Below are positions 19,540 to 56,678 of a stretch of 64,000 nt of DNA, one piece after another. Made by a program: the position numbers and the translations under genes. Origin of the DNA: Desulfurivibrionaceae bacterium (lineage in GTDB: Bacteria; Desulfobacterota; Desulfobulbia; Desulfobulbales; UBA5123); assembly GCA_030145325.1 (NCBI GenBank), contig JAQYVW010000009.1, forward strand, positions 473 through 64,472, written 5' to 3'. Every line of letters begins with the position of its first letter. Within the stretch, counting starts at the first letter, position 1. Under the pieces are notes generated by a model. That model had not been told where the DNA came from and did no database searches. It saw nothing but the letters and a program-made list of their open reading frames with translations.

Positions 19540-19873
19540 AAATTATCGTAATAACTATTAGAAAAAGAACCACAACACCCGCTTTCAAGAGAAAAAAACA
19601 TCTTACCCACAAATGATACTCTTTTACATTTCACTTTCCCTTTGCAATATTGCTAATAATCAATAATAAACTAATAATAATCTCGAAATACGGCATCTAC
19701 ACCTGCTAGCAACTTATCAAGTTCCAATATACTGTTGCACACGGAGACAACTCACACCTATAACATGAATAACCACCCACATCCAAAAGACATAGATTGA
19801 ATAGGGAACAGATACTTAATGAACAGCCAATATTATCCTTTAATATAATAGCTACCCCACCCAAAGAGCCGCC

Positions 19874-39793: not shown

Positions 39794-40225
39794 ATGATGG
39801 CTGAGAAACGCAAGAAATACAAAATACTGATCGTCGATGATGATCAAAACATCCTGAACATGCTGGATCTGGCGTTCATTAATACGTCCTACGATATCAC
39901 CACCATCGATCACCCCTTACACGCTTACAAAATGATCGAAAACGAACATTACGACATGGTGATCAGCGATATCCAGATGCCACAGATGGACGGCCTGACC
40001 CTGCTCCGCAAGATCAAAAACTTTAACGGTATGATCCAGGTTGTGATGATGACCGCCCACATTTCCATCAGCAACACCCTGGACGCCTTTCGCTACGGCG
40101 CGGTGGATATATTTTTTAAACCGTTCGCGGATATCAATGAAATCATTCTCGCCGCCGACGGGGTGGCTGCAAAACTGGACAGGGTAAACAACATCTTACG
40201 CCAGCTAACCGATGGAGACAGATAA
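39794..40225 (+). CDS. Single-domain CheY-like response regulator
   Basis: It is a 143-aa REC domain (ILIVDDD...DIQMPQMDG...FKP). Its stop codon is 3 nt before the start of CheA-1. Confidence 0.85.
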   Translation: MMAEKRKKYKILIVDDDQNILNMLDLAFINTSYDITTIDHPLHAYKMIENEHYDMVISDIQMPQMDGLTLLRKIKNFNGMIQVVMMTAHISISNTLDAFRYGAVDIFFKPFADINEIILAADGVAAKLDRVNNILRQLTDGDR

Positions 40226-40228
40226 GCC

Positions 40229-42553
40229 ATGAGCAGCGAAATGGATCTTGATGCCCTGCATGGCTTTCTCGATGAGTCAAGCGACTCCATGCAAGGCATT
40301 GAAGCAGACTTTATCGATCTCGAAAGAGATCCGACCAATATGGAGATCATCAACCGGATATTCCGCCCCATTCACAGCCTGAAAGGGAACTCCGGCTTCT
40401 TCGGCCTAACCAACATCAACAAATTCGCCCACCGCTTGGAAAACCTTCTCGACACCGTCAGACGAGGTGAACTTGCGATCACCAAAGAGATCATCGACAC
40501 CCTTCTCATCGGTGCAGATTTTCTTCGCCAAATGGTGGAACGGGTCTATGAGGACCCCACCGACGTCCTTTTGCGTGACAACGAAGAAGAGTTTTTAGGC
40601 AAGGTCGAACAATTCAAACCGGAAAAACCAACCGGCTCAATTGAGAGCATCCTGACCCTTGAAAAACTCGTCAACGAGGCGATGGATCACGGCATCTCCC
40701 CCACGGACAACACGTTAATCAGTACCCTGCTGGGAAAAATCGAAAAAGCCAACCAAGAAATCAAGCTCATCCTCAGTGACGTCAAAAACGCCGACTCCAC
40801 TGCCAAGCGATCCACCGCCGCCGCTTATATGATTGGTGATGAGGATCACTCCGCAGTGGTCAAACCGCTGCTTGATGTTGCAAGCCAAATGGACAAAAGA
40901 GCAACGGTTGACCGCCAACTCCTAGCTGAGTTCGAAAAATCCCTGGTCACCCTGAACGAGCTTCTTAAAGACGACAGTGACGCCGCCCATGAGTTAGAAG
41001 AACTGCAATCCATGAGCAACTTTCTTGACGATGAATTACTCATCACCAGCCAAGAATTCACCTCATCGACCACAGCATCCATTGATGCCGTTCTGAGCAA
41101 ATTCGACATCGTCAAAACCGAAAGCAAAGATATCGAAGCTGAATCATTTGGCAAGCTCGGAGAAATCCTTATCTCCCAAGACAAGGTCTCACCGGAACAA
41201 CTCACCGATGCGCTTAAAAAACAGAAGAAAGTTGGTGAAATACTGGTGGACGATGGCATTCTCAAGGACCAAGACCTCAAGGAAGCATTAACCATCCAGC
41301 AAAAAAATGCCTTGGCAGAGCATACCAAAAATGAACCTGTTGCTCGCGAAGTTAAAAAAACCATCCGTATCGATCAAGACAAGCTGGACAGTTTTGCCAA
41401 CTTCGTCGGCGAGCTGTTTATCAATATCGATTCTTTCAGCTTCCTGAAAAAGCAATTGGAAGAAACCGACGTCGACTTTGACCTCATGGCCCGCTTCACC
41501 AATACCATCACCTCCCTTGACGAGATGGTGGACACCCTGCAAGAAAGCATCATGGGGATCAGAAAGGTGCCCATCGACACCCTATTCAAACGCTTCCCCC
41601 GCGTAATCCGCCAACTAGCAGGCTCACTGAACAAGGATATCAACTTCAAAATCGTTGGCGAAGATACCGTCATCGACAAAGATCTGCTGGAAAAAATCGA
41701 GAATCCACTGGTCCATATGCTGCGAAATTCGGTGGATCATGGCATCGAAACGCCCGAAGAACGAACCAACAACAACAAGTCTGGCACCGGCACCTTGGAA
41801 CTGAAAGCGGCGGTGGATGAAAATTATGTTTATATCACCATCAACGATGACGGTAAGGGCATTGACCCGCAGATCATCAAGAAAGTGGCGCTGAAGAAAG
41901 AGCTCATCACCCCGGAAGAAGCTGAACAGATGCCAGACAAGGAGTTGATCAACCTCATCTTCAAACCGGGCTTCAGTTTAGCCGAAAAAATCAGCGATGT
42001 CTCAGGACGCGGCGTCGGCATGGATGTGGTGCAGTCGGTATTAAAAGAAACCAGCGGCACGGTGGAGGTAAACTCGGTAATTGACCAAGGCACTAAGGTT
42101 ACGATTAAGATTCCGTTAACCAAAACCCTGGTTGCCAAGGAGGCAATGATTGTTTCCGCTTATGAGCGAACACTGGCCATCCCCTCCGAGGATATTACCG
42201 CCACCATTGAAGCTAAGGACGAGGAAGCAACAAGACTTTTTTCCGGCGACAATTGTATCCAATACCACGGCGCGATTTATCAAGTCATCGATCTTGGCGC
42301 TTTCCTATTCCCCAAAACCATCCGCCAGCGACAAGATGCAGACCGGCATGTTATTATTGTCAGTGAAAAACATAACATCGCCCTATTAGTTGACGAAGTA
42401 TTGAGCCACCAAAAAATTGTCGTCAAAAACTTCACCGGCGGGTACAAAGCTTTAGACAGGGTCCGAGGCATCAACGGCTTTACAATCTTGGGTAACGAGG
42501 ATATTATCCTCATTGCCGATGTACAAAATATTACCGCCCACGCTGTTGATTAA
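40229..42553 (+). CDS. cheA: CheA-type histidine kinase 1 (Hpt, MshEN-like motif pair, dimerisation, HATPase, CheW-like)
   Basis: It has Hpt (FRPIHSLKGNSGFFGL), a P3 region (IRIDQDKLDSFANFVGEL), a kinase core (HMLRNSVDHGIE, DDGKGID, GRGVGMDVV) and a C-terminal CheW-like domain. The LGEILI.../VGEILV... tandem motif lies at aa 309-358. Confidence 0.9.
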   Translation: MSSEMDLDALHGFLDESSDSMQGIEADFIDLERDPTNMEIINRIFRPIHSLKGNSGFFGLTNINKFAHRLENLLDTVRRGELAITKEIIDTLLIGADFLRQMVERVYEDPTDVLLRDNEEEFLGKVEQFKPEKPTGSIESILTLEKLVNEAMDHGISPTDNTLISTLLGKIEKANQEIKLILSDVKNADSTAKRSTAAAYMIGDEDHSAVVKPLLDVASQMDKRATVDRQLLAEFEKSLVTLNELLKDDSDAAHELEELQSMSNFLDDELLITSQEFTSSTTASIDAVLSKFDIVKTESKDIEAESFGKLGEILISQDKVSPEQLTDALKKQKKVGEILVDDGILKDQDLKEALTIQQKNALAEHTKNEPVAREVKKTIRIDQDKLDSFANFVGELFINIDSFSFLKKQLEETDVDFDLMARFTNTITSLDEMVDTLQESIMGIRKVPIDTLFKRFPRVIRQLAGSLNKDINFKIVGEDTVIDKDLLEKIENPLVHMLRNSVDHGIETPEERTNNNKSGTGTLELKAAVDENYVYITINDDGKGIDPQIIKKVALKKELITPEEAEQMPDKELINLIFKPGFSLAEKISDVSGRGVGMDVVQSVLKETSGTVEVNSVIDQGTKVTIKIPLTKTLVAKEAMIVSAYERTLAIPSEDITATIEAKDEEATRLFSGDNCIQYHGAIYQVIDLGAFLFPKTIRQRQDADRHVIIVSEKHNIALLVDEVLSHQKIVVKNFTGGYKALDRVRGINGFTILGNEDIILIADVQNITAHAVD

Positions 42554-42733: not shown

Positions 42734-44047
42734 ATGGGAACAATGGAATCAGATATTTTCAAGGAAGAAGCTTATGATCTTCTTGATGATATAGAAGAAG
42801 CACTCCTTGAATTACGTGACAACCCCGCTGACAGCGAACTAATTAACCGCCTATTCCGCGCCTTTCATACCATCAAGGGATCGGGGGCCATGTTCGGCTT
42901 CAAAGAGGTGTCAAAATTCACCCATGAGGTGGAAACCGCCATCGACAAAATCCGCGAAGGGACCGGGGTGGTGCCGGACGCACTGCGCGAAGTCCTTCTC
43001 ACCGCTCGCGACCAGATCCTCGCCATGATCGAGACGGAAGACCCTGACGCCCCAGAGATTCAGGAAGCGGCACAACTCATCCTCAAGCAACTGGCGCCTG
43101 CTGTCTCAGCAAAAGAAGCGCCACCCGTACAGCAGCCCCCCACCCCCAAGCCTGAACCTGCCGCCGCCCCGCCCGTTATTGCCACGGAAATGCCGACAGT
43201 CCCAAAAACAGAGCCCAAAATCAATAAAGATCCGGACCCTGAAACGCAAGCGCTGCTAACCGAACTTGCAGAACTACTCAATGAAGTTCGAGACTTGTTA
43301 CAAAAACTGCACGAAGAACCCGGCGCCAATAAACTTTGCAAAAAGCTCCACCGATCAATTCATACCGTTGCCGGCACAGCGGCCATGTATGACATGGAAG
43401 CCCTTGCCGAATTCAGCAACAAACTTACCGATATCACTGCCACCATCAAACAAGCTGAAGAACCAGTCAATGATGAAGTGTTAAAAGTACTCACCGCAGC
43501 TATCGACCACTGCTTTTCCCTTCTCCGTTCCACCGACCCATCGGGGCAGGTTCTACAAAGACGCTCAGGCAAAATTACCACCGAACTTGAAGCAATGGTC
43601 AACAAAGACCAAACCAGTATCGGAACAGCGCCGGAAACTTTACGATTCCTTATTGTTGAAGACGAATTCATTAGCCGTTACCTTCTCCAAGAATTCCTGA
43701 CTCCATACGGTAATAGCCATGTTGCCATAGACGGTTACGAGGCTGTCTTGGCTTTTAAAAACGCCATTATCGAAAAGAAACCATACAATATCGTCTGTCT
43801 CGATATCATGATGCCGGGACTTGATGGTCGACAAGTGGCCAAAGAAATTCGCCGCCTGGAAAAAGAAATGGGCAACAACAATTTCTGCAAGATAGTAATG
43901 ACCACGGCTTTAGACGACGAAAGCATCAAGAACGAGTTATTGTCAGATAAACGGTGTGATGCCTATCTGACCAAACCCATACGATTTGAAGACCTTGACC
44001 AATTAATAAAATCATACTTTCCAGACTTCAATACGACAAATAGCTAA
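42734..44047 (+). CDS. Hpt-Hpt-REC phosphorelay protein
   Basis: It has two Hpt signatures (FRAFHTIKGSGAMFGF; HRSIHTVAGTAAMYDM) separated by a Pro-rich linker. A C-terminal receiver follows (FLIVEDEF...DIMMPGLDG...TKP). Confidence 0.85.
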   Translation: MGTMESDIFKEEAYDLLDDIEEALLELRDNPADSELINRLFRAFHTIKGSGAMFGFKEVSKFTHEVETAIDKIREGTGVVPDALREVLLTARDQILAMIETEDPDAPEIQEAAQLILKQLAPAVSAKEAPPVQQPPTPKPEPAAAPPVIATEMPTVPKTEPKINKDPDPETQALLTELAELLNEVRDLLQKLHEEPGANKLCKKLHRSIHTVAGTAAMYDMEALAEFSNKLTDITATIKQAEEPVNDEVLKVLTAAIDHCFSLLRSTDPSGQVLQRRSGKITTELEAMVNKDQTSIGTAPETLRFLIVEDEFISRYLLQEFLTPYGNSHVAIDGYEAVLAFKNAIIEKKPYNIVCLDIMMPGLDGRQVAKEIRRLEKEMGNNNFCKIVMTTALDDESIKNELLSDKRCDAYLTKPIRFEDLDQLIKSYFPDFNTTNS

Positions 44048-44190: not shown

Positions 44191-46500
44191 ATGTCCGACA
44201 AGCTGACGGATGAACAAGTAGAGATCATTGAAGAGTTCATTTGTGAAGTCCGCGACCTGATAGAGACTGCGGAGTCCGATATAATCGGTTTATCCTCCAT
44301 TTACAAAAACAATGAGTCCCAAACCTCAACCGAAAACCTAAAAACTCTTCACACCATCTTTCGTTGCTTCCATTCCATCAAGGGTGGCGCAGCCTTCCTG
44401 CAGTTCAACAATATGGTCACTTGCGCGCACAGCGCGGAAAATCTTCTCGATCTACTCCGAAATGATGAAATAACCCTTCTGCCAGGGCATATCGATCTGC
44501 TCTGCCAAGCCTGCGACTTCATCTCGATTGCTCTGGAACAACTTGAAACCAACCTCAATGATCACGAGCTCACAGAGCAAGCTAACGCCATCCACGATAA
44601 ATTTGAACGCGCCATCGCTGGTATCCCAGAACCGGAAGAATCCCCATCTGAGAACGAAAGCAATGACGACAGTTTATTAATCAATCTTGACCTCAACCCT
44701 TCTCAACTTATCAACCCGGACACACTTCACCATTTCATCGAGGAGTCCAGGGAACTTATTCAGAAAAGCGAAGCGGCTTTACTTGACTGGAGCAAAAACC
44801 CTAACGACTCCGACCCAGAACTAGTTGCGCAACTTTTTCGCAACATTCACAGCATTAAAGGCAACAGCGGTTTTCTCGGATTCTCCGACATGGAGCGCTT
44901 GGCCCACGGGATGGAGAACCTCCTTGATGCTGCCAGAGAAGGCGCCGCCATTAACCGCGGCAAAGCAGCAGAGACCCTCTTGGGGCTTGTAGACATAATC
45001 AGTCATGCCATGGAAGATATCGCCCAGGGAGAAGAATGTAAAATCAAAGGCATAGGCCTTCATCTCGAGGCATTGGCTGATCTTCTCCCCGACACCCCTT
45101 CCTCCAATGTACCGTTACCAAAACTTGGTGAAATTCTTGTCGATCAAGGCGTTGTCAGTGAAGACGCCCTGGAAAATGCCTTGGATGTCCAGAATAAACC
45201 TCTCGGTGAAATCCTGGTCGAAACCGGCGCAGCCACAGAAGAGCAAGTCGCGCAGGCCGTGCAAACTCAGAAGAAACAAGCAATCGTCCCAGGCAAGGCC
45301 ACAAAAACAACCGCTCGTCAGGACATCCGAGTTGACCTCGGCAAACTTGACAGTCTCATCAACCTCATCGGCGAAATGGTTATTGCTGAAAATATGTTGA
45401 TCAACAACCCTGATCTGCAAGATCTGGAATTGGAAAATTTCAACAAAGCCGGCCAGCACATGGACAAAATCATCCGTGAATTACAGGAAATGGCCATGTT
45501 TATCCGCATGGTGCCGGTGGCAGGCCTCTTTCGGCGCATGACCCGGCTGGTACATGATCTTTCCCGAAAATCCGGCAAAAAAGTTGACCTGCAACTGGTT
45601 GGAGAGACCACCGAGGTCGACAAAACGGTTATCGAATTAATTACTGACCCCCTGGTTCACCTTCTTCGCAACTCCATGGATCACGGCCTTGAGCCCCCAG
45701 AGGAACGCTTGCAAGCAGGCAAAAAAGATACCGGGATTCTACGTTTGTCCGCAACCCATGAAGAAGGCGAAGTCCTGATCACCATCACCGATGATGGGCG
45801 GGGGTTGAACAGAGAAAAAATCATCGCTAAAGCCATGGAAAAAGGTGTCCTTGACGATGATGGATCTCAGATGAGCGATTCAGATGTCTTTAACCTCATT
45901 TTCCTGCCCGGCTTTTCCACCGCCGACCAGGTTACCGATGTTTCTGGTCGCGGTGTTGGGATGGATGTGGTTCGCAAGAACCTTGAAAAGATCAAGGGCA
46001 AAATTGAAATTAAGAGCAAGCAAGGGGGCGGCACCACCATTATCTTGCGCATTCCGCTGACCCTGGCAATCATCGACGGGATGATGATCCGGGTGGGCAC
46101 TGCGCTATACATCGTGCCGCTTCTCTCAATCCGCGAATCATTCCGTCCCAGCCACGAATTGATTACCGTTTCTCCAGATGGTCAAGAACTGGCCAAGGTA
46201 CGCGAGAACCTGCTGCCGGTGGTGAGACTCCACGATCTTCACAAAATCAGCCCAGACTTCGATGAACTAGACAAAGGTATCCTCATTGTCCTTGAAGGCC
46301 AGGATCTTAATTTTTGCCTTTTTGTCGACGAAATCATGGGTCAGCAACAGACGGTTATCAAAGGTCTATCAGAATACATCTCCGTACTTGGCAATGTCGG
46401 CGGTGTTTCCGGCTGCACCATTCTCGGCAATGGCGATGTCTGCCTGATCCTTGATGTACATTCATTGGTGGATGTCGCTCTCAGCGATAACGAAGAGTGA
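44191..46500 (+). CDS. cheA: CheA-type histidine kinase 2 (two Hpt domains, MshEN-like motif pair, dimerisation, HATPase, CheW-like)
   Basis: It has Hpt1 (FRCFHSIKGGAAFLQF), Hpt2 (FRNIHSIKGNSGFLGF), a P3 region (IRVDLGKLDSLINLIGEM), a kinase core (HLLRNSMDHGLE, DDGRGL, GRGVGMDVV) and a CheW-like C-terminus. The tandem LGEILV motif lies at aa 311-360. Confidence 0.9.
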   Translation: MSDKLTDEQVEIIEEFICEVRDLIETAESDIIGLSSIYKNNESQTSTENLKTLHTIFRCFHSIKGGAAFLQFNNMVTCAHSAENLLDLLRNDEITLLPGHIDLLCQACDFISIALEQLETNLNDHELTEQANAIHDKFERAIAGIPEPEESPSENESNDDSLLINLDLNPSQLINPDTLHHFIEESRELIQKSEAALLDWSKNPNDSDPELVAQLFRNIHSIKGNSGFLGFSDMERLAHGMENLLDAAREGAAINRGKAAETLLGLVDIISHAMEDIAQGEECKIKGIGLHLEALADLLPDTPSSNVPLPKLGEILVDQGVVSEDALENALDVQNKPLGEILVETGAATEEQVAQAVQTQKKQAIVPGKATKTTARQDIRVDLGKLDSLINLIGEMVIAENMLINNPDLQDLELENFNKAGQHMDKIIRELQEMAMFIRMVPVAGLFRRMTRLVHDLSRKSGKKVDLQLVGETTEVDKTVIELITDPLVHLLRNSMDHGLEPPEERLQAGKKDTGILRLSATHEEGEVLITITDDGRGLNREKIIAKAMEKGVLDDDGSQMSDSDVFNLIFLPGFSTADQVTDVSGRGVGMDVVRKNLEKIKGKIEIKSKQGGGTTIILRIPLTLAIIDGMMIRVGTALYIVPLLSIRESFRPSHELITVSPDGQELAKVRENLLPVVRLHDLHKISPDFDELDKGILIVLEGQDLNFCLFVDEIMGQQQTVIKGLSEYISVLGNVGGVSGCTILGNGDVCLILDVHSLVDVALSDNEE

Positions 46501-46668
46501 TTCACCCGCATCGCACGTCCCTCCCCGCCCTCCACACTACAAAGCTGTAAACATCCCACGACTTTGTTAACAATTACGTAACACTCACCCCACACCTTTC
46601 TCGCTCGCCCCTTCACCCTACGTATAAAAAGTTCCTAATTACAACACAATGAGATGGCTGTTCCAGCC

Positions 46669-46685
46669 TGGCACATTTCGTGCAT
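46669..46685 (+). promoter_or_regulatory. Putative sigma-54 (-24/-12) promoter for MCP-1
   Basis: The sequence is TGGCACATTTCGTGCAT. GG and GC are separated by exactly 10 nt, as in the TGGCAC-N5-TTGCW consensus. It lies about 110 nt upstream of the MCP-1 ATG. Confidence 0.55.
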
Positions 46686-46794
46686 TTCCTTCTCAAGTTC
46701 GAGGAAGATGCTCAATCACCTTCACTGGTCTAAAAAATGGCATCGTCAAAACAAAAAAGCCATTACCGGCCTTTCATTTTATGGAGAACTATTA

Positions 46795-49737
46795 ATGTTC
46801 AAGAATCTTAAACTTACCAAAAAACTCCTTATTGCTTTTCTCGGCGTAGGGCTAATCCCTTTTGCTGCCGTTGGCCTTACCGCTCTACTTAAAGCCAGTA
46901 GCGCCCTTGATCAGTCGGCATTTAATCAATTGCAGTCGGTTCAGGCAATCAAGAAAGCTCAGATCCAACGCTTCTTCACCGAGCGTAAAGGCGACATGGC
47001 CGTGTTACTGAATACCACTGCCGCTTTTGACGATGAGGTAAGCAGTAAAATTTACGCCATCCAAAACAACAAGAAAGAAGCGCTGGAACTGATCAGCCAG
47101 CAATGGTTCACCGATATCAAGATCCAGCAAGGTCAGGACATTTCCAGCAAAGGTTTGCCGCACTTCCAAAATTATCTCAAAACAGGCAAGAAATCGGCGC
47201 AATACAAACACTACGCCACGCAAGTTTCGCAATTCATGAAGGCCACCGGCTACTACGATTACTTTGTCATCGACAAATCCGGCCTTTGCGTCTTCACCGA
47301 CGCCAAGGAGGCGGATTACAAAACAAACCTTCTTAACGGCCCCTACAAAGACTCCGGCCTTGGAGTCGCCACCAAACGCGCCTTCAATGGAGAAACAGCC
47401 ATTGAAGATTTCGCTTCCTATGCACCCTCAAACGGCGCCCCAGCTGCTTTTATTGCTGCCCCGATCCGAAGAGGGAAAAACATCATCGGGGTTGTCGCCC
47501 TGCAAATCCCCCATGAAAAGGTGCAAGCCATTGTTGCCGAACGCACCGGCCTCGGCATAAGCGGCGAGGCTTACCTTGTGGGCAGAAAGGACGGCAAAAC
47601 CGGCTATCGCAGCAATCGCGTCATCAAGAACGGCAAGCTCGGCCAGGATAAAAATGGTGCCGACATCAACAAGGCGCTGGTAGGCGAAGCAGGGGTTCGC
47701 TTCAAGAAGGGCAGCACCGGCGACATGGAACTGGTCGCCTATACACCGGTTAAGATCCCCGGCCTTGACTGGGCTTTAATCACCTCCATGAGTCTCGAAG
47801 AGGCCATGGCTCACAAAGAAAAAGGCGATAAAGAGGATTACTTTGCAAAATACGTCAGGCAATACGGCTACTACGACCTCTTCCTGATTGAACCGGAAGG
47901 CAAGGTTTATTACTCGGTGACCCATGAGGCCGATTACGATACCAATATGATTAATGGCAAGTACGCCGATTCCGGGCTCGGTAAACTGGTCCGCCGGGTT
48001 ATTCAGGAAAAGAAATACGGGGTAGCAGACTTCGCCCCCTATGCACCCAGCAACAACGAACCAGCCGCTTTCATCGCCGCTCCTGTTTTTCGCAACGGCG
48101 AACTCCAACAGATCGTCGCCCTGCAACTGTCACTGGAGGCGATCAACAACATCATGCAGCAGCGTGAAGGGATGGGCGAAACCGGCGAGACTTATCTGGT
48201 TGGCCCGGACAAACTTATGCGTTCGGACTCCTTCCTTGACCCCACCAATCATTCGGTCAAAGCCTCGTTTGCCAACCCAACCACCGGCAGTGTCAACACC
48301 GAGGCCGCCCGCGAAGCACTGGCCGGACAGTCCGATTCTAAAATCATCATCGACTATAACGGCAATCCGGTTCTTTCCGCCTACACCCCACTGAAGGTTG
48401 GCGACAGCACCTGGGCAGTCATCGCCGAAATTGATGAAGCAGAGGCCTTTGCGGCCATCAACACCTTGAAATGGGTAATAGGTATCGTCTTTGTCGTCGG
48501 CATGGCCGCCATTATCGTCGTTGCCCTGACCATCACCCGTTCCATCACTCAGCCGGTGAGCAAAACCGTCCTCATGCTTGACGAGATGGCCAAGGGTCAC
48601 CTGGACAACCGACTAAACATGGATCGAGGCGACGAGATCGGCCAGATGGCTAAGACCATGGACTCTTTTGCCGATAGTTTGCAAAACGAAATGGTGGCAG
48701 CGCTGAACAAGCTGGCTGACGGCGACCTAACCTTTGATGCCAATCCACACGATGAGAATGACACCATCAGAAACTCGCTGAAAAAAACCGGTGACGACCT
48801 GAACAAACTGATCTCCGAAATCCTCACCGCCACCGAACAGATCGCCAGCGGTTCCGGCCAGGTTTCCGATTCCAGCCAGGCCCTCTCCCAAGGGGCGACA
48901 GAACAGGCGGCATCACTTGAGCAGATCACCAGCTCCATGACCGAGATGGGCTCACAAACCAGATTAAACGCCGAGAACGCCACCCAGGCCAATCAGTTAG
49001 CCAGCCAGACCAGGAGTGCAGCAGAAAGCGGCAATACGAAAATGCAGGAGATGGTCTCGGCCATGGGTGAAATCAACGAGGCGGGCCAAAGCATCTCCAA
49101 GATCATCAAGGTTATTGATGAGATTGCCTTTCAGACCAACCTACTGGCCTTGAACGCGGCAGTGGAAGCGGCCCGGGCCGGGCGTCATGGCAAGGGTTTT
49201 GCGGTGGTTGCAGAAGAGGTACGCAACCTGGCTGCCCGTAGCGCCAAGGCAGCTAAAGAAACCGCAGAGCTCATCGAAAGCTCGGTGGAAAAAACCAAGA
49301 ACGGCACCCAAATCGCCGAGGCGACCAGCGAGGCACTGGCCGAAATAGTCGGCTCGGTCACCAAGGTCACCGATCTTGTCGGCGAAATCGCTGCCGCTTC
49401 TAATGAGCAGGCGCAAGGAATCAACCAGACAAATCAGGCCTTGGGCCAGATCGATCAGGTAACCCAGCAGAACACCGCCAGCGCCGAAGAGAGCGCCGCT
49501 GCCTCGGAAGAGCTTTCCGGCCAGGCCATGCACATGAAAGAGATGATGAGCCGCTTCCGGGTCCGCGACATGGGCCAAGGAGGGATGCGCCAGCAACCCA
49601 TGTCACGGCAACAAAACGGCTGGGGAAACGCAACGCAACAACCACTGCCGCAACCACAGGCCCCAGGCCATTTACCCCGCCCCTTTGCGCCAAGTGAAAT
49701 AATAACCTTGGACGACAAGGAATTCGGTAAATATTAA
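46795..49737 (+). CDS. Methyl-accepting chemotaxis protein 1 (duplicated double-Cache-like periplasmic sensor, HAMP, MA domain)
   Basis: I set the start at the ATG at 46795, which has a GGAG Shine-Dalgarno 8 nt upstream and aligns with the MF(K/S)..KL..KLLIAFL N-termini of the other two MCPs. The signalling hairpin is [21 protein letters not shown]. The ORF-track start at 46654 adds 47 non-homologous residues. Confidence 0.9.
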
Positions 49738-49762
49738 TCGCTATAATAGCGAATGTTTCCAA

Positions 49763-49797
49763 ATGGCGTCCCTAGGTTCAGGGACGCCATTTTTTTT
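49763..49797 (+). terminator. Rho-independent terminator after MCP-1
   Basis: ATGGCGTCCCT pairs with AGGGACGCCAT in an 11-bp stem with a 6-nt loop, followed by T7. Confidence 0.85.
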
Positions 49798-49931
49798 AAT
49801 TTTTTTCTATCAAATAACTACCCAAAAGCGTTCAACAAAAGTGTACACATCTATTCAATTTTGTTGAACATTCACCTTACGCCTAACAATGCACATATGC
49901 ACAACACCTTTAAATCATTGTAAAAAATAAT

Positions 49932-49960
49932 TTGACAGCTTTACAACAGTTACTGATAAT
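49932..49960 (+). promoter_or_regulatory. Putative sigma-70-type promoter of cheW-mcp cassette 1
   Basis: TTGACA (49932-49937), a 17-nt spacer, then GATAAT (49955-49960). The block is conserved in cassette 2. Confidence 0.55.
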
Positions 49961-50095
49961 AAAAATCCTAGGCATTCTCAGTTGGTAATATCATAAAACA
50001 CTGCCCCTTAACCCCATTTCCAAAAGACTCCTTTGGCAACCTCACTTTCGCAACAGGAATTGCTAAAATAGAGCATTTTAACAAGGAGAGAAGCT

Positions 50096-50602
50096 ATGGC
50101 TGAAGATCAAGTTGTCGACATGGAGGATGATCTCTACGACGACGAAGACACCATGAAGGACAAGTACCTCACCTTCCATCTGGCCGGTGAGGATTACGGC
50201 CTTGACATCGTTTTTGTCACCGAGATCATCGGCATCCAGAAAATCACCGAAGTGCCGGACATGCCTAACTTTGTTAAGGGGGTAATCAACCTACGCGGCA
50301 AGGTAATCCCGGTGATGGACGTACGGTTACGTTTCAACTTGCAGGAACGTGATTACGACGAACGCACCTGTATCGTAGTCGTTGATATTAACGGCACCGC
50401 CGTCGGCCTTGTTGTTGATCAGGTCAACGAGGTGGCCGATATCCCCGAGGCACAGGTCGAGCCGCCCCCACGCACCACCAAGGGGACGACCAGCCGCTTC
50501 TTAAAGGGCATGGGCAAGGTGGATGAAGAAGTCCGCATCCTGCTCAATGTCGACAAGCTGCTCTACGACGAAGAAATGGAAATGCTTGCTGGTGCGGCGT
50601 AA
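50096..50602 (+). CDS. cheW: CheW coupling protein (copy 1)
   Basis: It is a 168-aa canonical CheW domain with an acidic N-terminal extension (MAEDQVVDMEDDLYDDED). Confidence 0.9.
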   Translation: MAEDQVVDMEDDLYDDEDTMKDKYLTFHLAGEDYGLDIVFVTEIIGIQKITEVPDMPNFVKGVINLRGKVIPVMDVRLRFNLQERDYDERTCIVVVDINGTAVGLVVDQVNEVADIPEAQVEPPPRTTKGTTSRFLKGMGKVDEEVRILLNVDKLLYDEEMEMLAGAA

Positions 50603-50648
50603 TCTTTCCTGAGAAAAAATCACAACATAACAAATAACGAGGTGAACA

Positions 50649-53588
50649 ATGTTTAGTAGACTTAAATTGGGCCAAAAACTTCTTATCGCCTTCCTCTGCG
50701 TCGGGGTTATCCCCTTTGCGGTGGTCGGCCTAAGTTCGCTGATCAAGGCCAGTAATGCCTTGGAGTATGCAGCCTTCAACCAGCTGAACGCCGTTCAGGG
50801 AATCAAAAAGAAACAGATTGAAAATTTCTTCAACGAGCGCAAAGGCGACATGACGGTTTTGCTTGATACCATTGAAACATTTGTCGATGAAAACGCCGAC
50901 AAAATGTTGGCCATCCAGAAGAACAAGAAGGAAGCCATTGAAGAGATTGGTGAGCAATGGATCTTGGATGTTGAAGGAATGTCCGACGATGATCTTCTCA
51001 GCGAAGGCATAGATCACTGTAAGCAATTTATTAAAACCGGCAAAAAAACCGCAGCATATCGTGAATTTTCCCTTGAAGTTGATACGTTTACCAAAAGGTC
51101 CGGCTATTACGATTTCTTCGTCATCGACACAACGGGTCTTTGTGTCTACAGCACTGCCAAAGAAGCGGACTACAAATCAAATCTCCTCACCGGTCCCTAC
51201 AAAAATAGCGGCCTGGGCCACGCCACCCGCAACGCCATGCAGGGCAAGACTTACATTGATGACTTTTCCCCCTACGCCCCTTCAAACGGTGAGCAGTCTG
51301 CTTTTATTGCCGCCCCGATTAAAGATGGCGACAAGATTGTCGGGGTTGTAGCTTTACAGATCCCCACCGACGAGATTCAAGCCATCACGGCTGACCGCAC
51401 CGGCCTTGGTCACAGCGGCGAAGCGTACCTGATCGGCACTCTTGACGGCCAGATCGCGATGCGCTCCAATCGGACCGTCAAGAGTGACAAAATCGGCGAC
51501 GCAAAAAAAGGACAAGATATCGACAAGGCCATGGCTGGCGAAACCGGTTGGATGTTCAAGAAGGGCAGCAGCGGCGCCATGGAGATGAGTACCTATACCC
51601 CTCTTGAGATCCCCGGTCTTAAATGGGCGATGGTCACCTCCATGAGCCTAGAGGAGGCAATAGCCAAAAAAGAAGAAGGCGCTAGCGAGGATTACTTCTC
51701 TCGTTATATCCAGCAGTACGGCTATTACGATCTCTTCCTCATTGAACCGGGTGGGCAAGCGTATTACACGGTGAGCAAGGAGGCGGATTACAAAACCAAC
51801 ATGGTAAACGGAAAATACGCCGACTCGAACTTGGGCGAACTGGTCCGGCAGGTCCTGCAAACCAGGCAGTACGGGGTGGCCGATTTCGCCCCTTACGCAC
51901 CCTCAAACAACGAACCCTGCGCTTTTATCGCTGCTCCGATCATCCACCAAGGCAAGGTGGAACAGGTCATCGCCATGCAGTTGTCGCTTGAAGCGATCAA
52001 CTCCATCATGCAACAACGCGACGGGATGGGCGAAACCGGAGAAACCTACTTGGTCGGCCCTGATAAGTTGATGCGTTCCGATTCCTTTCTTGACCCCACC
52101 AACCATTCGGTCAAGGCCTCCTTTGCCAACCCGGCCACCGGTAGCGTTGACACCGAGGCCGCCCGCGAGGCCCTGGCAGGCAGGAACGATGCCAAGATCA
52201 TTATTGATTACAACGGCCAACCGGTTCTTTCCGACTATGCACCGCTGAAGATCGGTGACAAAACCTGGGCAGTCATCGCCGAGATCGATGAGGCCGAGGC
52301 CTTTGCCGCCGTCAACTCCTTGAAATGGGTAATAGGCATCGTCTTTGTCATCGGCCTCGGTGCCATTATATCCGTAGCGTTGATGATCACCCGCTCCATT
52401 ACCCAACCGGTAACCAAAACCGTGCACATGCTTGAGGAGATGGCCAAGGGCCACCTGAATATCCGCCTCAACATGGACCGTGCCGATGAAATCGGCCAGA
52501 TGGCCAAAACCATGGACGCCTTTGCCGACAGCCTGCAGAACGAGATGGTGGCGGCGCTCAACAAACTGGCCGCTGGCGATCTCACCTTTGACGCCACCCC
52601 CCATGATGAAGCCGACGCGATTAGAAACTCTCTGAAGAAGACCGGAGACGATCTCAATACCCTGATCAGCGACATCCTCACCGCCACCGAACAGGTGGCC
52701 AGCGGTTCTGGCCAGGTCTCAGACTCCAGCCAATCCCTCTCTCAAGGTGCCACCGAACAGGCGGCCTCCCTGGAAGAGATCACCAGTTCAATGACCGAGA
52801 TGGGCTCACAGACCAAGTTGAATGCCGAAAATGCCACCCAGGCCAACCAATTGGCAGGCCAAACCAAAACTGCGGCTGAAGGCGGCAACGCCAAAATGCA
52901 GGAGATGGTCACCGCCATGGGCGAGATCAACGAGGCAGGGCAAAACATCTCGAAGATCATCAAGGTTATCGACGAGATCGCCTTCCAGACCAACCTGTTG
53001 GCCTTAAACGCAGCGGTGGAAGCCGCCCGCGCCGGTCGCCATGGCAAGGGCTTTGCCGTGGTCGCCGAAGAGGTCCGCAATCTCGCCGCTCGTAGCGCCA
53101 AAGCGGCCAAGGAAACCGCCGAGCTCATCGAGGGCTCGGTGGAAAAAACCAAGAACGGTACCAAAATCGCCGAAGCAACCAGCGATGCATTGGCCGAAAT
53201 CGTTACCTCGGTCACCAAGGTGACGGACCTGGTCGGTGAGATCGCCGCCGCCTCCAACGAGCAGGCGCAGGGGATCAACCAGACCAATCAGGCCTTGGGC
53301 CAGATCGATCAAGTGACCCAGCAGAACACCGCCAGCGCTGAAGAGAGTGCGGCGGCCTCGGAAGAACTATCCGGGCAGGCCATGAACATGAAAGAAATGA
53401 TGAGCCGCTTCACGGTTCGTGATATGGGCAGCGGCTCTGGCCGTCAGCAAGCCTCCCTGCCGAGTCCAACTCAATCCACGCCACAAAACGGCTCTTGGGG
53501 AGGAGGCCAGCAAACAGCCGCGAGAAAATCCGCTCCGGCCCCCAGCGACCTCATCGCCCTTGACGACAAGGAGTTCGGCAAGTACTAA
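50649..53588 (+). CDS. Methyl-accepting chemotaxis protein 2 (duplicated double-Cache-like sensor, HAMP, MA domain)
   Basis: It is a full-length paralogue of MCP-1 with the same architecture and the same C-terminal LDDKEFGKY tail. Confidence 0.9.
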
Positions 53589-53611
53589 CAACGTAAAAAT
53601 ATCATAAAAAA

Positions 53612-53650
53612 ATGGCGTCCCTGGTTTTCCCAGGTGACGCCATTTTTTTT
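53612..53650 (+). terminator. Rho-independent terminator after MCP-2
   Basis: ATGGCGTCCCTGG pairs with CCAGGTGACGCCAT (one bulge), followed by T8. It is homologous to the MCP-1 terminator. Confidence 0.85.
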
Positions 53651-53780
53651 ACTATTTCTATCGACCTACCACAAGAAGGCAGTTCAACAGATTTGAACAT
53701 ATGTTCTCAGTTTTGTTTAACATTTCACAAGACCTAACCACAAGCACACCCACACCTTCAACATAATTACAAAAAATAAT

Positions 53781-53810
53781 TTGACACCTTCATGTACGTC
53801 TGCTGATAAT
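53781..53810 (+). promoter_or_regulatory. Putative sigma-70-type promoter of cheW-mcp cassette 2
   Basis: TTGACA (53781-53786), a 17-18-nt spacer, then (T)GATAAT. It is a paralogous copy of the 49932 promoter block. Confidence 0.55.
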
Positions 53811-53944
53811 AAAAACTCTAGGCATTATCAGTTGGCAATATAGTAAGATCCTAATCCTTATCACCATCACAAAATGTTCTTTTGCAACTACACCTCCGCA
53901 AGAGGAATTGCAAAAACAGAACACTTTAAACCAGGAGAGAAGCA

Positions 53945-54451
53945 ATGGCAGAAGATCAAGTTGTCGACATGGAGGATGACCTCTACGACGACGAAGACAC
54001 CATGAAGGACAAGTACCTCACCTTTCACCTGGCCGGTGAGGATTACGGCATCGACATCGCCTTTGTCACTGAGATTATCGGTATCCAAAAGATTACCGAA
54101 GTTCCGGACATGCCTGACTTTGTCAAGGGGGTAATCAACCTGCGCGGCAAGGTGATCCCGGTGATGGATGTGCGCTTGCGCTTTCATCTGGATGAGCGCG
54201 ATTACGACGAACGCACCTGTATCGTGGTGGTTGATATCAACGGCACTGCTGTCGGTTTGGTGGTTGATCAGGTTAACGAAGTAGCCGACATCCCGGAAGC
54301 GGATGTGGAGCCGCCGCCCCGCACCACCAAGGGTAGCAGCAGCCGCTATCTAAAAGGAATGGGCAAGGTGGAAGAACAAGTCCGCATCCTCCTGAATGTG
54401 GACAAACTACTCTACGACGAAGAAATTGAACAAATCGTCGCGGCAGCTTAA
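53945..54451 (+). CDS. cheW: CheW coupling protein (copy 2)
   Basis: It is 168 aa. By my manual alignment it differs from copy 1 at 16 positions. Confidence 0.9.
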   Translation: MAEDQVVDMEDDLYDDEDTMKDKYLTFHLAGEDYGIDIAFVTEIIGIQKITEVPDMPDFVKGVINLRGKVIPVMDVRLRFHLDERDYDERTCIVVVDINGTAVGLVVDQVNEVADIPEADVEPPPRTTKGSSSRYLKGMGKVEEQVRILLNVDKLLYDEEIEQIVAAA

Positions 54452-54497
54452 TCAATCGCCACAACAACACTTTATAAAACTAAAATGAGGTATTCAT

Positions 54498-56678
54498 ATG
54501 TTCAGTAGACTGAAACTAGGTCAAAAACTTCTTATCGCCTTCCTCTGCGTCGGGGTGATCCCCTTCTCGGTGGTAGGTCTCACCGCCTTGCTCAAAGCCA
54601 GCGCCGCCTTAAATCAATCCTCCTTTAACCAGCTCAATGCGGTGCAGGGGATCAAGAAAGCGCAGATCACCACCTTCTTTGACGAACGGCATGGCGATAT
54701 GAACGTGCTGGTGAACACGGTGGGCAATTTCATTAAAGAAGCCGGCACCATTGATGCCGCCATGGCAGGCCTGACCGAGGGAGGTACTGACTACTTCGCC
54801 GACTACATCAAGGATTACGGTTACTATGACCTCTTCCTCATTGACGCTCAGGGGAAGGCGTTCTACACCGTCGCCAAGGAGTCTGATTACAACAGTAACT
54901 TTGTCAACGGCAAGTACGCCAGCTCCAACCTGGGCAAACTGGTTCGTCAGGTCATCCAGACCAGACAATACGGGATGGCCGATTTCGCCCCTTACGCCGC
55001 CAGCAATAACGAGCCATGCGGCTTCATCGCCGCGCCACTTATTGAAAATGGTGAGGTAAAATTGGTCATCGGTCTACAGTTGTCGCTGGAAGCAATGAAC
55101 CGGATTATGCAACAGCGCGACGGGATGGGCAAAACCGGCGAAACCTATCTGGTCGGTTCCGACAAGTTGATGCGTTCTGATTCCTTCCTTGACCCCACCG
55201 GCCATTCGGTTAAAGCCTCTTTTGCCAACCCAGCCACCGGCAGTGTCGACACCGAGGCCGCCCGTGATGCGCTGGCCGGGCGCACCGATTCGAAAATCAT
55301 CATCGACTACAACGGCAACCCGGTTCTCTCCTCCTATGCACCAATGAAAATCGGCGACACCACCTGGGCGGTTATCGCCGAGATCGACGAGTCGGAAGCC
55401 TTTGCCGCCGTCAACGCCTTGAAATGGGTCATCGGCATCGTCTTTGTCATCGGTGTGGCCGGTATTATCACCGTGGCCCTGATGATCACTCGCTCCATCA
55501 CCCAGCCGGTGGGCAAGACGGTACACATGCTCGAGGAAATGTCCAAAGGCCACCTTGACTTACGCCTTAACATGGACCGCGCCGATGAGATCGGCCAGAT
55601 GGCCAAAACCATGGACTCCTTTGCCGACAGCCTGCAAAAAGAGATGGTGGGCGCGCTAAACATGTTAGCCGACGGCGATCTTACCTTTGACGCCACCCCC
55701 CAAGACGAGAACGACGCCATCAGGAACTCGCTGAAGAAAACCGGCGATGACCTCAATATCCTGATCACCGATATCCTCACCGCCACCGAACAAGTGGCCA
55801 GCGGCTCCGGCCAGGTATCAGATTCCAGCCAAGCCCTTTCCCAGGGTGCCACTGAACAGGCAGCATCCTTGGAAGAGATCACCAGTTCCATGACCGAGAT
55901 GGGCTCTCAAACTAAACTGAATGCCGAAAACGCTACTCAGGCTAACCAGTTGGCCAGTCAGACCAAAACCGCTGCGGAAGGCGGCAACGCCAAGATGCAG
56001 GAAATGGTTTCGGCCATGGGCCAGATCAACGAGGCAGGTCAGAATATCTCCAAGATCATCAAGGTTATCGATGAGATCGCCTTTCAAACCAACCTTCTTG
56101 CCTTAAACGCAGCCGTGGAAGCGGCACGGGCTGGTCGTCATGGCAAGGGCTTTGCTGTGGTTGCCGAAGAGGTACGAAACCTCGCCGCTCGTAGCGCCAA
56201 GGCCGCTAAAGAAACCGCTGAGCTCATTGAAGGGTCGGTGGAAAAAACCAAGAACGGCACCGCCATCGCCGAATCAACCAGCGAAGCGTTGGCTGAAATT
56301 GTTTCCTCCGTAACCAAGGTGACTGATCTGGTGGGAGAAATCGCTGCCGCTTCCAACGAACAGGCCCAAGGCATCAACCAGACCAATCAGGCCCTGGGCC
56401 AGATTGATCAAGTAACCCAACAGAACACTGCCAGCGCCGAAGAAAGTGCGGCCGCCTCGGAAGAGCTTTCCGGCCAAGCGATGAATATGAAAGAGATGAT
56501 GAGCCGCTTCAAGGTTCGCGACATGGGCCGTAGCGCCGGAATACGCCAACAACCTACAAGGCCAACGCCGCAGCAAAACGACTGGGGTACCAGTCAGCAA
56601 AAACCGCTGCCGAGAGCTCAGGCTCCTGCCGCCCATGAGGTTATAGCCTTGGATGACAAGGAGTTTGGTAAATACTAA
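54498..56678 (+). CDS. Methyl-accepting chemotaxis protein 3 (single double-Cache-like sensor, HAMP, MA domain)
   Basis: Its N-terminus, TM segments, HAMP, MA domain and tail match MCP-2. It lacks the first sensor module, roughly 250 aa. Confidence 0.9.

What the first reader, a model, noticed from the sequence alone, without database searches (positions are those of the whole stretch)
45121..45270. CheA-2 carries the same tandem motif, closer to consensus
Residues 311-360 read KLGEILVDQGVVSEDALENALDVQ-NK-PLGEILVETGAATEEQVAQAVQTQ. The first half matches every fixed position of the MshEN signature except K for R. The same module occupies the same position in two otherwise diverged CheA paralogues (one Hpt versus two). 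That argues it is functional rather than a chance coiled-coil.
Basis: partly seen in the sequence, partly recalled or inferred. Interest (0 to 1): 0.7.

Follow-up and report, generated by a model that had tools for sequence, protein, structure and literature searches.

The report
c-di-GMP-binding module inside CheA kinase
The chemotaxis kinase CheA-2 carries, just before its dimerisation domain, a strongly conserved 50-residue copy of the MshEN_N module that binds the bacterial second messenger c-di-GMP in other proteins. This CheA-MshEN_N fusion was already described in 2016, with binding measured in vitro, so the finding is real but not new.

Summary
Window 45121-45270 (+) encodes residues 311-360 of a 769-aa CheA (44191-46500), made of two tandem 24-residue motifs. 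Motif I fits the published MshEN consensus except for K in place of R, and fits the extended (R/K/L) consensus exactly. It is not chance: the relaxed motif occurs three times in 128,000 six-frame residues, all in the two CheAs.

A profile of the module hits only MshEN/GSPII domains in the PDB (PilF 2.4e-31, MshE 5HTL 3.5e-10). Across 120 orthologues the ligand-contact positions are near invariant (Gly3 120/120 in both motifs; Gln24 119/120 and 120/120), and the fixed positions are far more conserved than the flanking linker.

Wang et al. 2016 list the HPT-CheY-binding-MshEN_N-P3-P4-P5 architecture and measured a KD of 2.6 uM for the Aeromonas veronii CheA fragment. K and P at motif position 1 both occur in proven binders (PilF GSPII-B and GSPII-C).

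Differences here: a 2-residue spacer (5-9 in tested binders), no P2 domain, two Hpt domains, and a paralogue (CheA-1) with the same module nearby. Binding by this protein and any effect on kinase activity are inferred. Foldseek did not confirm the fold. Verdict: a new member of a known kind, of modest interest.

The parts
44191..46500 (+). CheA-2 gene (769 aa): Hpt-Hpt-MshEN_N-P3-P4-P5
   Evidence: ORF; Pfam domains; 120 orthologues named CheA, from Desulfobulbaceae, Desulfurivibrio, Desulfuromusa and Desulfuromonas.
44224..44544 (+). First Hpt (P1) domain, about residues 12-118, with the phospho-acceptor motif FHSIKG
   Evidence: Pfam Hpt gives 2 stretches; BLASTP alignment to the CheA-1 Hpt covers residues 16-118. 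Boundaries are approximate.
44725..44991 (+). Second Hpt domain, residues 179-267, with motif IHSIKG
   Evidence: Best Pfam Hpt stretch is 179-267.
45121..45192 (+). MshEN_N motif I, residues 311-334: KLGEILVDQGVVSEDALENALDVQ
   Evidence: matches the extended consensus. Conservation. Predicted as helix 312-318, turn at G320, helix 324-334.
45193..45198 (+). 2-residue spacer N335-K336 (5 residues in V. cholerae MshE)
   Evidence: start-to-start distance is 26 in all 76 orthologues where both motifs were detected. K336 is K in 97 of 120.
45199..45270 (+). MshEN_N motif II, residues 337-360: PLGEILVETGAATEEQVAQAVQTQ
   Evidence: relaxed pattern. P337 is P in 104/120; G339, G346 and Q360 are 120/120. 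Predicted as helix 338-345, turn at G346, helix 350-365.
45271..45318 (+). Variable linker of about 16 residues from the module to P3
   Evidence: Low conservation (about 0.8-1.9 bits for residues 361-374). pLDDT is 68 over model block 61-70 (residues 361-370) and 57 over residues 371-376.
45319..45498 (+). P3 dimerisation domain (H-kinase_dim), residues 377-436
   Evidence: Pfam PF02895, E = 2e-16.
45649..46062 (+). P4 kinase domain (HATPase_c), residues 487-624
   Evidence: Pfam PF02518, E = 4.7e-17.
46078..46473 (+). P5 CheW-like domain, residues 630-761
   Evidence: Pfam PF01584, E = 1.2e-22.
40229..42553 (+). CheA-1 paralogue (774 aa, one Hpt); same module at residues 309-357 (nt 41153-41299) with a 1-residue spacer
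   Evidence: The HMM built from the CheA-2 family module hits it at E = 1.6e-14.
39794..40225 (+). CheY-like single REC protein immediately upstream of CheA-1
   Evidence: Pfam Response_reg, E = 3.6e-26.
42734..44047 (+). Hpt-Hpt-REC protein encoded between the two CheA genes
   Evidence: Pfam Hpt (2 stretches) plus Response_reg.
46654..56678 (+). Downstream chemoreceptor block: MCP (46654-49737), CheW (50096-50602), MCP (50649-53588), CheW (53945-54451), MCP (54498-56678)
   Evidence: Pfam MCPsignal/HAMP and CheW. The two CheW proteins are 90% identical.

Best explanation
Residues 311-360 of CheA-2 are a stand-alone MshEN_N module, the N-terminal four-helix subdomain of MshE/GSPII domains. 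It sits between the second Hpt (P1) domain and the P3 dimerisation domain, in the place a P2 domain usually occupies.

Shown here: it is homologous to solved c-di-GMP-binding MshEN/GSPII domains, and the residues that contact the ligand in those structures are near invariant across the CheA-2 family.

Inferred: each 24-residue motif forms a helix-turn-helix hairpin, and the two hairpins together bind one c-di-GMP molecule. The backbone amides of Gly3 and the next residue would read the guanine O6/N7. Leu2, hydrophobic 17 and hydrophobic 21 would form the stacking clusters. Gln24 would hold the ribose-phosphate. K311 and P337 would stack on the bases.

The ligand site lies at the N-terminus of helix 1, about 10 residues after Hpt2. 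Helix 4 leads through a linker of about 16 residues into P3. Ligand binding is therefore expected to change how freely Hpt can reach the P4 ATP site, and so to tune CheA autophosphorylation or phosphotransfer. That would make the kinase itself a c-di-GMP receptor linking the motile/sessile signal to chemotaxis output. The direction of the effect is not known. By analogy with other c-di-GMP inputs to motility I would guess inhibition.
For: Sequence and chance.

Homology. The single sequence against the PDB gives PilF 6f8l at 9e-18 and MshE 5htl at 1.8e-4. The family profile gives PilF 2.4e-31 (GSPII-C stretch 1.2e-15), 5htl 3.5e-10, and PilF GSPII-B and several PilB entries at 1e-8 to 5e-5. Nothing unrelated scores below 0.2. 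In 1.84 billion representative proteins, 1,789 match at E <= 1e-3, and the best are proteins with 4-9 tandem copies of the same motif.

Conservation. Gly3 is 120/120 in both motifs, Gln24 is 119/120 and 120/120, and L316 is 120/120. Fixed positions average 3.45 bits against 1.35 in the flanking linker.

Predicted structure. Four helices with each motif's turn glycine in the hairpin loop; pLDDT 81 and 91.7.

Literature.
- The isolated MshEN_N (1-62/65) binds c-di-GMP with KD 0.35 uM.
- The A. veronii CheA fragment 261-390 binds with KD 2.6 uM.
- The CheA architecture is listed in Wang et al. 2016 (PMC5013675).
- K or L at position 1 gives nanomolar binding in PilF GSPII-B. GSPII-C has P335 at motif II position 1 and binds at about 0.3-0.5 uM (PMC11731258).

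Context. Orthologues sit in complete che operons, and next to flagellar genes in Desulfuromonas.
Against: - No binding data exist for this protein or for any MshEN_N with a 2-residue spacer. Tested binders have 5 (MshE, GSPII-B), 7 (GSPII-C) or 9 (A. veronii CheA) residues.
- A consensus sequence alone is not sufficient. PilF GSPII-A did not bind even after its consensus was restored (PMC12002112).
- Motif II is weaker than the consensus (AA at positions 11-12; V353 and V357 where Leu is usual).
- Pfam PF05157 does not hit the protein at E <= 1.
- Foldseek of both models against the PDB returned no MshEN, PilF or PilB hit.
- No GGDEF, EAL or PilZ gene was found among the roughly 40 window ORFs scanned.
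- No paper in the searched library reports any effect of c-di-GMP on a CheA.
Confidence: 0.68

Rival explanations
1. The module is a ligand-independent structural element. It would be an MshEN_N-derived helical spacer or protein 'landing pad', for example a substitute docking site for CheY-like regulators in a CheA that lacks P2. This is the role proposed for the non-binding PilF GSPII-A domain.
For: - No P2/CheY-binding domain was detected in CheA-2.
- The 1-2-residue spacer lies outside the range of tested binders.
- Foldseek does not match the models to holo MshEN structures.
- GSPII-A shows that consensus-like domains can be non-binders used as interaction surfaces (PMC12002112).
- In CheA-1 the turn glycine of motif I is lost.
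Against: Near invariance of Gln24 in both motifs and of Gly3 is hard to explain by folding alone. In MshE these residues contact the ligand rather than the core. Known non-binders such as XpsE and GSPII-A have lost several of these residues, and none is lost here. The only CheA fragment with this module that has been tested did bind c-di-GMP.
Confidence: 0.22
2. The compact module binds a different cyclic dinucleotide, for example 3',3'-cGAMP, rather than c-di-GMP. From my own knowledge, not tested here, Geobacter and other Desulfuromonadales use cGAMP.
For: V. cholerae MshEN_N binds cGAMP measurably, though weakly (330 uM against 0.5 uM). The two motifs here differ systematically: P against R/K/L at position 1, A/T/K at position 11 of motif II, and a shortened spacer. 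The family is concentrated in Desulfobulbales and Desulfuromonadales.
Against: Both motifs keep the Gly3-X backbone geometry that discriminates against adenine N6 in MshE. No sequence feature found here points to adenine recognition. The A. veronii CheA fragment binds c-di-GMP.
Confidence: 0.07
3. The resemblance is a chance product of an amphipathic or coiled-coil linker with biased composition.
For: The segment is rich in E, Q, L, V and A. Pfam gives only sub-threshold hits (DUF4388, FumaraseC_C).
Against: - 17 of 20,000 shuffles give even one motif, and here two lie in register.
- Profile E-values down to 2.4e-31 go only to MshEN/GSPII domains.
- Glycines and glutamines are invariant across 120 orthologues, and the module is present in a 36%-identical paralogue and in CheAs of other phyla.
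Confidence: 0.01

Closest known systems
Aeromonas veronii CheA (EKB11881) with an MshEN_N insert; Wang et al. 2016, Nat Commun 7:12481, Supplementary Tables 4 and 6 and Fig. 3c
   Same: It is a CheA kinase with two tandem MshEN motifs placed directly before the P3 dimerisation domain. One motif starts KLGEIL, and 14 of 24 residues are identical to CheA-2 motif I by my count from the alignment. There is no MshEN_C subdomain. The fragment 261-390 binds c-di-GMP with KD 2.6 uM by ITC.
   Different: The Aeromonas protein is HPT-CheY-binding(P2)-MshEN_N-P3-P4-P5, has a 9-residue spacer, and its better motif is the second one. CheA-2 is Hpt-Hpt-MshEN_N-P3-P4-P5 with no P2 detected, has a 2-residue spacer, and its better motif is the first. 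Wang et al. reported the taxa as Actinobacteria and Proteobacteria; this protein is from a Desulfobulbaceae-like Thermodesulfobacteriota genome.
Vibrio cholerae MshE N-terminal domain (MshEN, PDB 5HTL)
   Same: It has two 24-residue motifs, each forming a helix-turn-helix, with the same Leu2, Gly3, Gly10, hydrophobic 17/21 and Gln24 positions. The family profile aligns across both motifs at E = 3.5e-10.
   Different: [quoted passage not shown] It is fused to a T2SS/T4P ATPase rather than to a histidine kinase.
Thermus thermophilus PilF GSPII-B (PDB 8PDK) and GSPII-C (in 6F8L)
   Same: GSPII-B starts KLGELL (K at position 1) and binds at 6 nM. GSPII-C has P at position 1 of motif II (KPLGEILVELG...), binds at about 0.3-0.5 uM, and is the best PDB match to the CheA-2 module (60 bits, 1.2e-15).
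   Different: The spacers are 5-7 residues, a C-terminal subdomain is present, the domains lie in a pilus ATPase, and GSPII-C has three motifs.
Other routes by which c-di-GMP reaches chemotaxis: MapZ-CheR1 (P. aeruginosa), PilZ-containing chemoreceptors (A. caulinodans Cbp1), PlzC (V. cholerae)
   Same: These also couple c-di-GMP levels to chemotaxis or motor switching (titles and abstracts listed).
   Different: They use PilZ adaptors or receptors acting on CheR or MCPs. Here the putative receptor domain is built into the CheA kinase itself and belongs to a different fold family.

Membership tests
MshEN_N c-di-GMP-binding subdomain (Wang et al. 2016; Neissner et al. 2024) | A 24-residue motif (R/K/L)LGxx(L/V/I)(L/V/I)xxG(L/V/I)(L/V/I)xxxxLxxxLxxQ as the first copy | tested here: met
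   Residues 311-334, KLGEILVDQGVVSEDALENALDVQ, match the extended consensus exactly by regular expression. Against the 2016 consensus only K for R differs.
MshEN_N c-di-GMP-binding subdomain (Wang et al. 2016; Neissner et al. 2024) | A second tandem copy of the motif | tested here: met
   Residues 337-360 match the relaxed published pattern [RKPN]hGxxhhxx[GAS]hhxxxxhxxxhxx[QNKRYWST]. They do not match the strict consensus: P at position 1, AA at 11-12, V at 17 and 21. P at position 1 of motif II has a precedent in the binder PilF GSPII-C.
MshEN_N c-di-GMP-binding subdomain (Wang et al. 2016; Neissner et al. 2024) | The two motifs are joined by a short spacer: 5 residues in MshE (a 53-residue unit) and 5-9 in experimentally tested binders | tested here: inconclusive
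   The spacer here is 2 residues (a 50-residue unit), fixed in 76 of 76 orthologues where both motifs were detected. Among the 150 best relatives, start-to-start distances of 23-45 residues were seen; 29 is commonest (176 cases) and 26 occurs 22 times. Spacer length therefore varies within the family, but no 2-residue case has been tested for binding.
MshEN_N c-di-GMP-binding subdomain (Wang et al. 2016; Neissner et al. 2024) | Significant sequence similarity to solved MshEN/GSPII domains | tested here: met
   phmmer: PilF 9e-18, 5HTL 1.8e-4. Family profile: PilF 2.4e-31, 5HTL 3.5e-10, and PilF GSPII-B and PilB at 1e-8 to 5e-5, with no unrelated hit below 0.2.
MshEN_N c-di-GMP-binding subdomain (Wang et al. 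2016; Neissner et al. 2024) | Ligand-contact residues retained (Leu2, Gly3, hydrophobic 17/21, Gln24 in both motifs), in contrast to non-binders such as XpsE | tested here: met
   All are present in CheA-2. Across 120 orthologues Gly3 is 120/120 in both motifs, Gln24 is 119/120 and 120/120, position 2 is always L/I/V, and positions 17 and 21 are almost always L/I/V (1 Ala at position 21 of motif II).
MshEN_N c-di-GMP-binding subdomain (Wang et al. 2016; Neissner et al. 2024) | A compact four-helix bundle made of two helix-turn-helix hairpins | tested here: inconclusive
MshEN_N c-di-GMP-binding subdomain (Wang et al. 2016; Neissner et al. 2024) | Binds c-di-GMP | not testable with these tools
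   This needs ITC, DRaCALA or MST. The only precedent in a CheA is the A. veronii fragment at KD 2.6 uM.
Full MshEN / GSPII domain (Pfam PF05157; N-terminal plus C-terminal subdomains) | An alpha/beta MshEN_C subdomain following the four-helix subdomain, and recognition by PF05157 | tested here: not met
   Only about 16 residues separate Q360 from P3. PF05157 gives no hit at E <= 1 and hits only 8 of 78 of the closest relatives. The segment is therefore filed as the MshEN_N subdomain only, not as a full MshEN domain.
CheA with an MshEN_N insert (architecture of Wang et al. 2016, Supplementary Table 4) | [quoted passage not shown] | tested here: met
   All four Pfam domains score above their gathering thresholds, and the module ends 16 residues before P3.
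CheA with an MshEN_N insert (architecture of Wang et al. 2016, Supplementary Table 4) | A CheY-binding (P2) domain between Hpt and MshEN_N, as in the published example | tested here: not met
   Pfam gives no P2 or CheY-binding hit at E <= 1. A second Hpt occupies residues 179-267 instead. This is an architectural variant of the published example.

The most novel reading that the evidence does not exclude
The compact CheA-type MshEN_N, with a spacer fixed at 1-2 residues and standing in place of P2, may be a functionally distinct subclass rather than a plain copy of the MshE sensor. It could be a dinucleotide-gated tether or docking site that decides whether the Hpt domains, or a partner such as the adjacent Hpt-Hpt-REC protein, can reach the kinase. 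Its ligand preference might also be altered, for example towards 3',3'-cGAMP. In that case two paralogous CheAs in one cluster would read the second messenger differently.
Probability: 0.12. Interest if true: 0.7.

Novelty: new member of a known kind. Interest (0 to 1): 0.3.

Why it matters
If the module binds c-di-GMP, as its conservation suggests, the central chemotaxis kinase of these Desulfobulbaceae-like bacteria is itself a second-messenger receptor. The sessile/motile signal would then enter the pathway at CheA rather than through PilZ adaptors, CheR or the motor.

The architecture has been known since 2016, but I found no study of what c-di-GMP does to any CheA. The large, tightly conserved CheA-2 and CheA-1 families described here offer well-defined targets and point mutants (G313, G339, Q334, Q360) for that experiment.

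There is also an annotation gap. Pfam does not recognise stand-alone MshEN_N modules, so such CheAs are labelled as ordinary CheA.

Tried and rejected
- Pfam scans of CheA-2, CheA-1 and the 70-aa segment gave no PF05157 hit, only sub-threshold DUF4388 and FumaraseC_C. I rejected this as evidence against homology because PF05157 also misses 70 of 78 of the closest relatives, while HMMER against the PDB is unambiguous.
- PF27543, flagged in some orthologues, turned out to be FimL_C (a faint hit) lying between the two Hpt hits. It is unrelated to the module.
- A recent DNA-level duplication of the motif was tested and rejected: Tandem Repeats Finder finds nothing in 44900-45500.
- I looked for c-di-GMP enzymes or PilZ proteins in the window. 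None was found among about 40 ORFs scanned. This says nothing about the rest of the genome.
- My first regular expression for motif spacing had an off-by-one error. I corrected and re-ran it.
- Literature searches for a functional CheA/c-di-GMP study found none.
Full report
**Observation**

Window 45121-45270 on the + strand translates to KLGEILVDQGVVSEDALENALDVQNKPLGEILVETGAATEEQVAQAVQTQ. These are residues 311-360 of a 769-aa ORF at 44191..46500.

Pfam identifies that ORF as a CheA:
- two Hpt stretches (best 179-267)
- H-kinase_dim at 377-436
- HATPase_c at 487-624
- CheW-like at 630-761
- no P2/CheY-binding domain

The segment is two 24-residue motifs separated by two residues (N335, K336). 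Motif I fits every fixed position of the MshEN consensus RLGxx(L/V/I)(L/V/I)xxG(L/V/I)(L/V/I)xxxxLxxxLxxQ except K for R. It fits the extended (R/K/L) consensus of Neissner et al. exactly. Motif II fits only the relaxed pattern that Wang et al. used for database searches. It has P at position 1, AA at positions 11-12 and V at positions 17 and 21.

The paralogue CheA-1 (40229..42553, one Hpt) has the same module at residues 309-357. The BLASTP alignment of the two proteins (36% identity over 463 residues) starts exactly at KLGEIL.

**Is it more than chance?**

Yes.
- The relaxed motif occurs only three times in the 127,996 residues of the six-frame translation of the window, all within the two CheAs.
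- Only 17 of 20,000 shuffles of CheA-2 contain even one copy.
- There is no DNA-level tandem repeat, so the duplication is old.

**What it is**

The 70-aa segment searched against PDB sequences finds the T. thermophilus pilus ATPase PilF (9e-18, three GSPII domains), V. cholerae MshE 5HTL (1.8e-4), the isolated PilF GSPII-B domain, and PilB proteins.

A profile built from 37 orthologous modules (A3) gives:
- PilF at 2.4e-31 (GSPII-C stretch 1.2e-15)
- 5HTL at 3.5e-10, aligned across both motifs with a 3-residue insertion at the spacer
- PilF GSPII-B and several PilB entries at 1e-8 to 5e-5
- nothing unrelated below E = 0.2

In 1.84 billion representative proteins, 1,789 match at E <= 1e-3. The best are proteins carrying 4-9 tandem copies of the same motif.

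Pfam's own MshEN model (PF05157) does not report the segment. It also misses 70 of the 78 closest relatives, most of which hit positions ~46-80 of DUF4388 instead. This is a sensitivity gap of a model built on the two-subdomain domain, not evidence against homology.

**Conservation**

CheA-2 has more than 4,000 homologues at E <= 1e-20. The best 120 (53-100% identical) come from Desulfobulbaceae, Desulfurivibrio, Desulfuromusa and Desulfuromonas. In their alignment:
- G313, L316, G339, G346 and Q360 are invariant.
- G320 and Q334 are 119/120.
- A356 is 115/120 and position 357 is Leu in 112/120 (CheA-2 itself has V357).
- Position 311 is R52/L41/K21, and position 337 is P in 104/120.

Fixed motif positions average 3.45 bits. 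Other module positions average 2.29 bits and the flanking linker 1.35 bits (p = 7e-8). The CheA-1 family (n = 82) gives 3.47 / 2.72 / 1.61 bits.

Gly3 and Gln24 contact the ligand rather than the hydrophobic core in the MshE structure. Their invariance therefore argues for retained ligand binding.

The turn glycine of motif I is D in CheA-1 and is unconserved in that family.

**What is already known**

Wang et al. 2016 (PMC5013675) solved MshEN with c-di-GMP and defined the motif. They showed that the isolated four-helix MshEN_N binds with a KD of 0.35 uM. [quoted passage not shown]

Neissner et al. 2024 (PMC11731258) showed the following:
- PilF GSPII-B, with K167 and L196 at position 1 of its two motifs, binds at 6 nM.
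- The K167L variant binds at 2 nM.
- GSPII-C, whose only deviation is P335 at position 1 of motif II, binds at about 0.3-0.5 uM.

Both deviations seen in CheA-2 (K311 and P337) therefore have precedents in proven binders.

Neissner et al. 2025 (PMC12002112) add a caution. GSPII-A does not bind even with a restored consensus, because an N-capped, elongated helix 1 and contacts between subdomains block the site. CheA-2 has no C-terminal subdomain, and P308 and P310 precede K311. That should disfavour such an extension, but this is inference only.

**How this one differs**

1. The spacer is 2 residues, giving a 26-residue period, in 76 of 76 orthologues where both motifs were detected. It is 1 residue in the CheA-1 family. 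Tested binders have 5, 7 or 9 residues. Among the 150 closest relatives a period of 29 dominates (176 cases), but 26 occurs 22 times.
2. CheA-2 lacks P2 and has two Hpt domains, so the module sits where P2 would be.
3. Two diverged MshEN_N-bearing CheAs lie in one cluster: REC-kinase, CheY, CheA-1, Hpt-Hpt-REC, CheA-2, then MCP, CheW, MCP, CheW, MCP. The pair appears to be conserved in related metagenome assemblies: each CheA-2 hit and its CheA-1 counterpart report the same longest-contig length (12704, 68994 and 23733).

Orthologues of CheA-2 elsewhere sit in complete che operons with CheR, CheB, CheD and CheX. In Desulfuromonas they lie beside flagellar genes. The family therefore serves flagellar chemotaxis.

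**Structure**

AlphaFold2 on residues 301-376 gives pLDDT 81, and on residues 308-364 gives pLDDT 91.7. Both models show four helices, with each motif's turn glycine in the hairpin loop and a poorly ordered linker to P3. This agrees with the published description of MshEN_N.

**Mechanism**

Shown: the module is homologous to c-di-GMP-binding MshEN_N, and its ligand-contact residues are conserved.

Inferred: it binds one c-di-GMP between the two hairpins (my estimate about 0.7). The ligand site lies at the N-terminus of helix 1, about 10 residues after Hpt2, and helix 4 leads into P3. Occupancy should therefore alter the access of Hpt to P4 and so tune kinase output. The direction is unknown, and I found no published test on any CheA.

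Rivals:
- a ligand-independent spacer or docking pad replacing P2 (0.22)
- a changed dinucleotide preference such as cGAMP (0.07)
- chance (0.01, refuted)

**Verdict**

The thing itself is a new member, with a compact spacer and a P2-less architecture, of a kind described and biochemically sampled in 2016. Interest is modest at 0.3. The open and testable question is what c-di-GMP does to a CheA.

Noticed in passing
window 42734-44047 (+): A 437-aa Hpt-Hpt-REC protein with a Pro/Ala-rich linker is encoded between the two CheA genes. It is a free-standing double phosphotransfer protein fused to a receiver, which suggests a multi-step phosphorelay around the two kinases.
   Followed up: partly
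window 40229-42553 (+), module at 41153-41299: CheA-1 carries the same module with a 1-residue spacer (25-residue period). The turn glycine of motif I is not conserved in its family (D here; Q24/N12/G12 in 82 orthologues), while Gly3 and Gln24 of both motifs remain 82/82.
   Followed up: yes
orthologues P0072, P0100, P0115 (CheA-2 family) and P0372 (Sumerlaeota CheA): Some CheAs carry three tandem motifs at a 26-residue period instead of two, as PilF GSPII-C does. P0386 seems to keep only one.
   Followed up: no
Desulfuromusa/Desulfuromonas-type orthologues, e.g. P0060-P0120: A large subgroup (about 41 of 120) has Leu at position 1 of motif I (LLGDFLVEEGV-KEE...) and a one-residue deletion after the turn glycine. 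Leu at position 1 and a motif one residue short are both features of the nanomolar binder PilF GSPII-B.
   Followed up: no
distant CheAs P0360-P0384: MshEN_N-type tandem motifs before P3 occur in CheAs labelled Sumerlaeota, Chitinophagales (Bacteroidota) and Syntrophomonas (Firmicutes). That is a wider spread than the 'Actinobacteria, Proteobacteria' given in 2016. Start-to-start distances are 25, 26, 28 and 30.
   Followed up: partly
Pfam scan of relatives; window 45091-45300: Stand-alone MshEN_N repeats are not caught by Pfam PF05157 (8 of 78 relatives). They give hits to positions ~46-80 of DUF4388 (PATAN) and to FumaraseC_C instead. This annotation gap hides such modules in CheAs.
   Followed up: partly
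window 50096-50602 and 53945-54451 (+): The two CheW genes are 90% identical over all 168 residues, and each is followed by an MCP. This looks like a recent duplication of a CheW-MCP unit.
   Followed up: partly
window 35775-36182 and 36301-36714 (-): Two adjacent single-domain hemerythrin genes lie just upstream of the chemosensory cluster. They might be O2 or redox sensors.
   Followed up: no
window 19874-20539 (+): A 221-aa ORF gives two separate CheW-like stretches in Pfam. It is an orphan or unusual CheW far from the main cluster, and it overlaps an ORF on the opposite strand (19706-20338) that has no Pfam hit.
   Followed up: no
window 38280-39572 (+): A REC-HisKA-HATPase hybrid kinase (receiver at the N-terminus) lies directly upstream of the CheY/CheA-1 pair. 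It could be an output or a cross-talk partner of the cluster. No CheB or CheR is found near the two CheAs, unlike in Desulfurivibrio and Desulfuromonas orthologous loci (L001, L003).
   Followed up: partly
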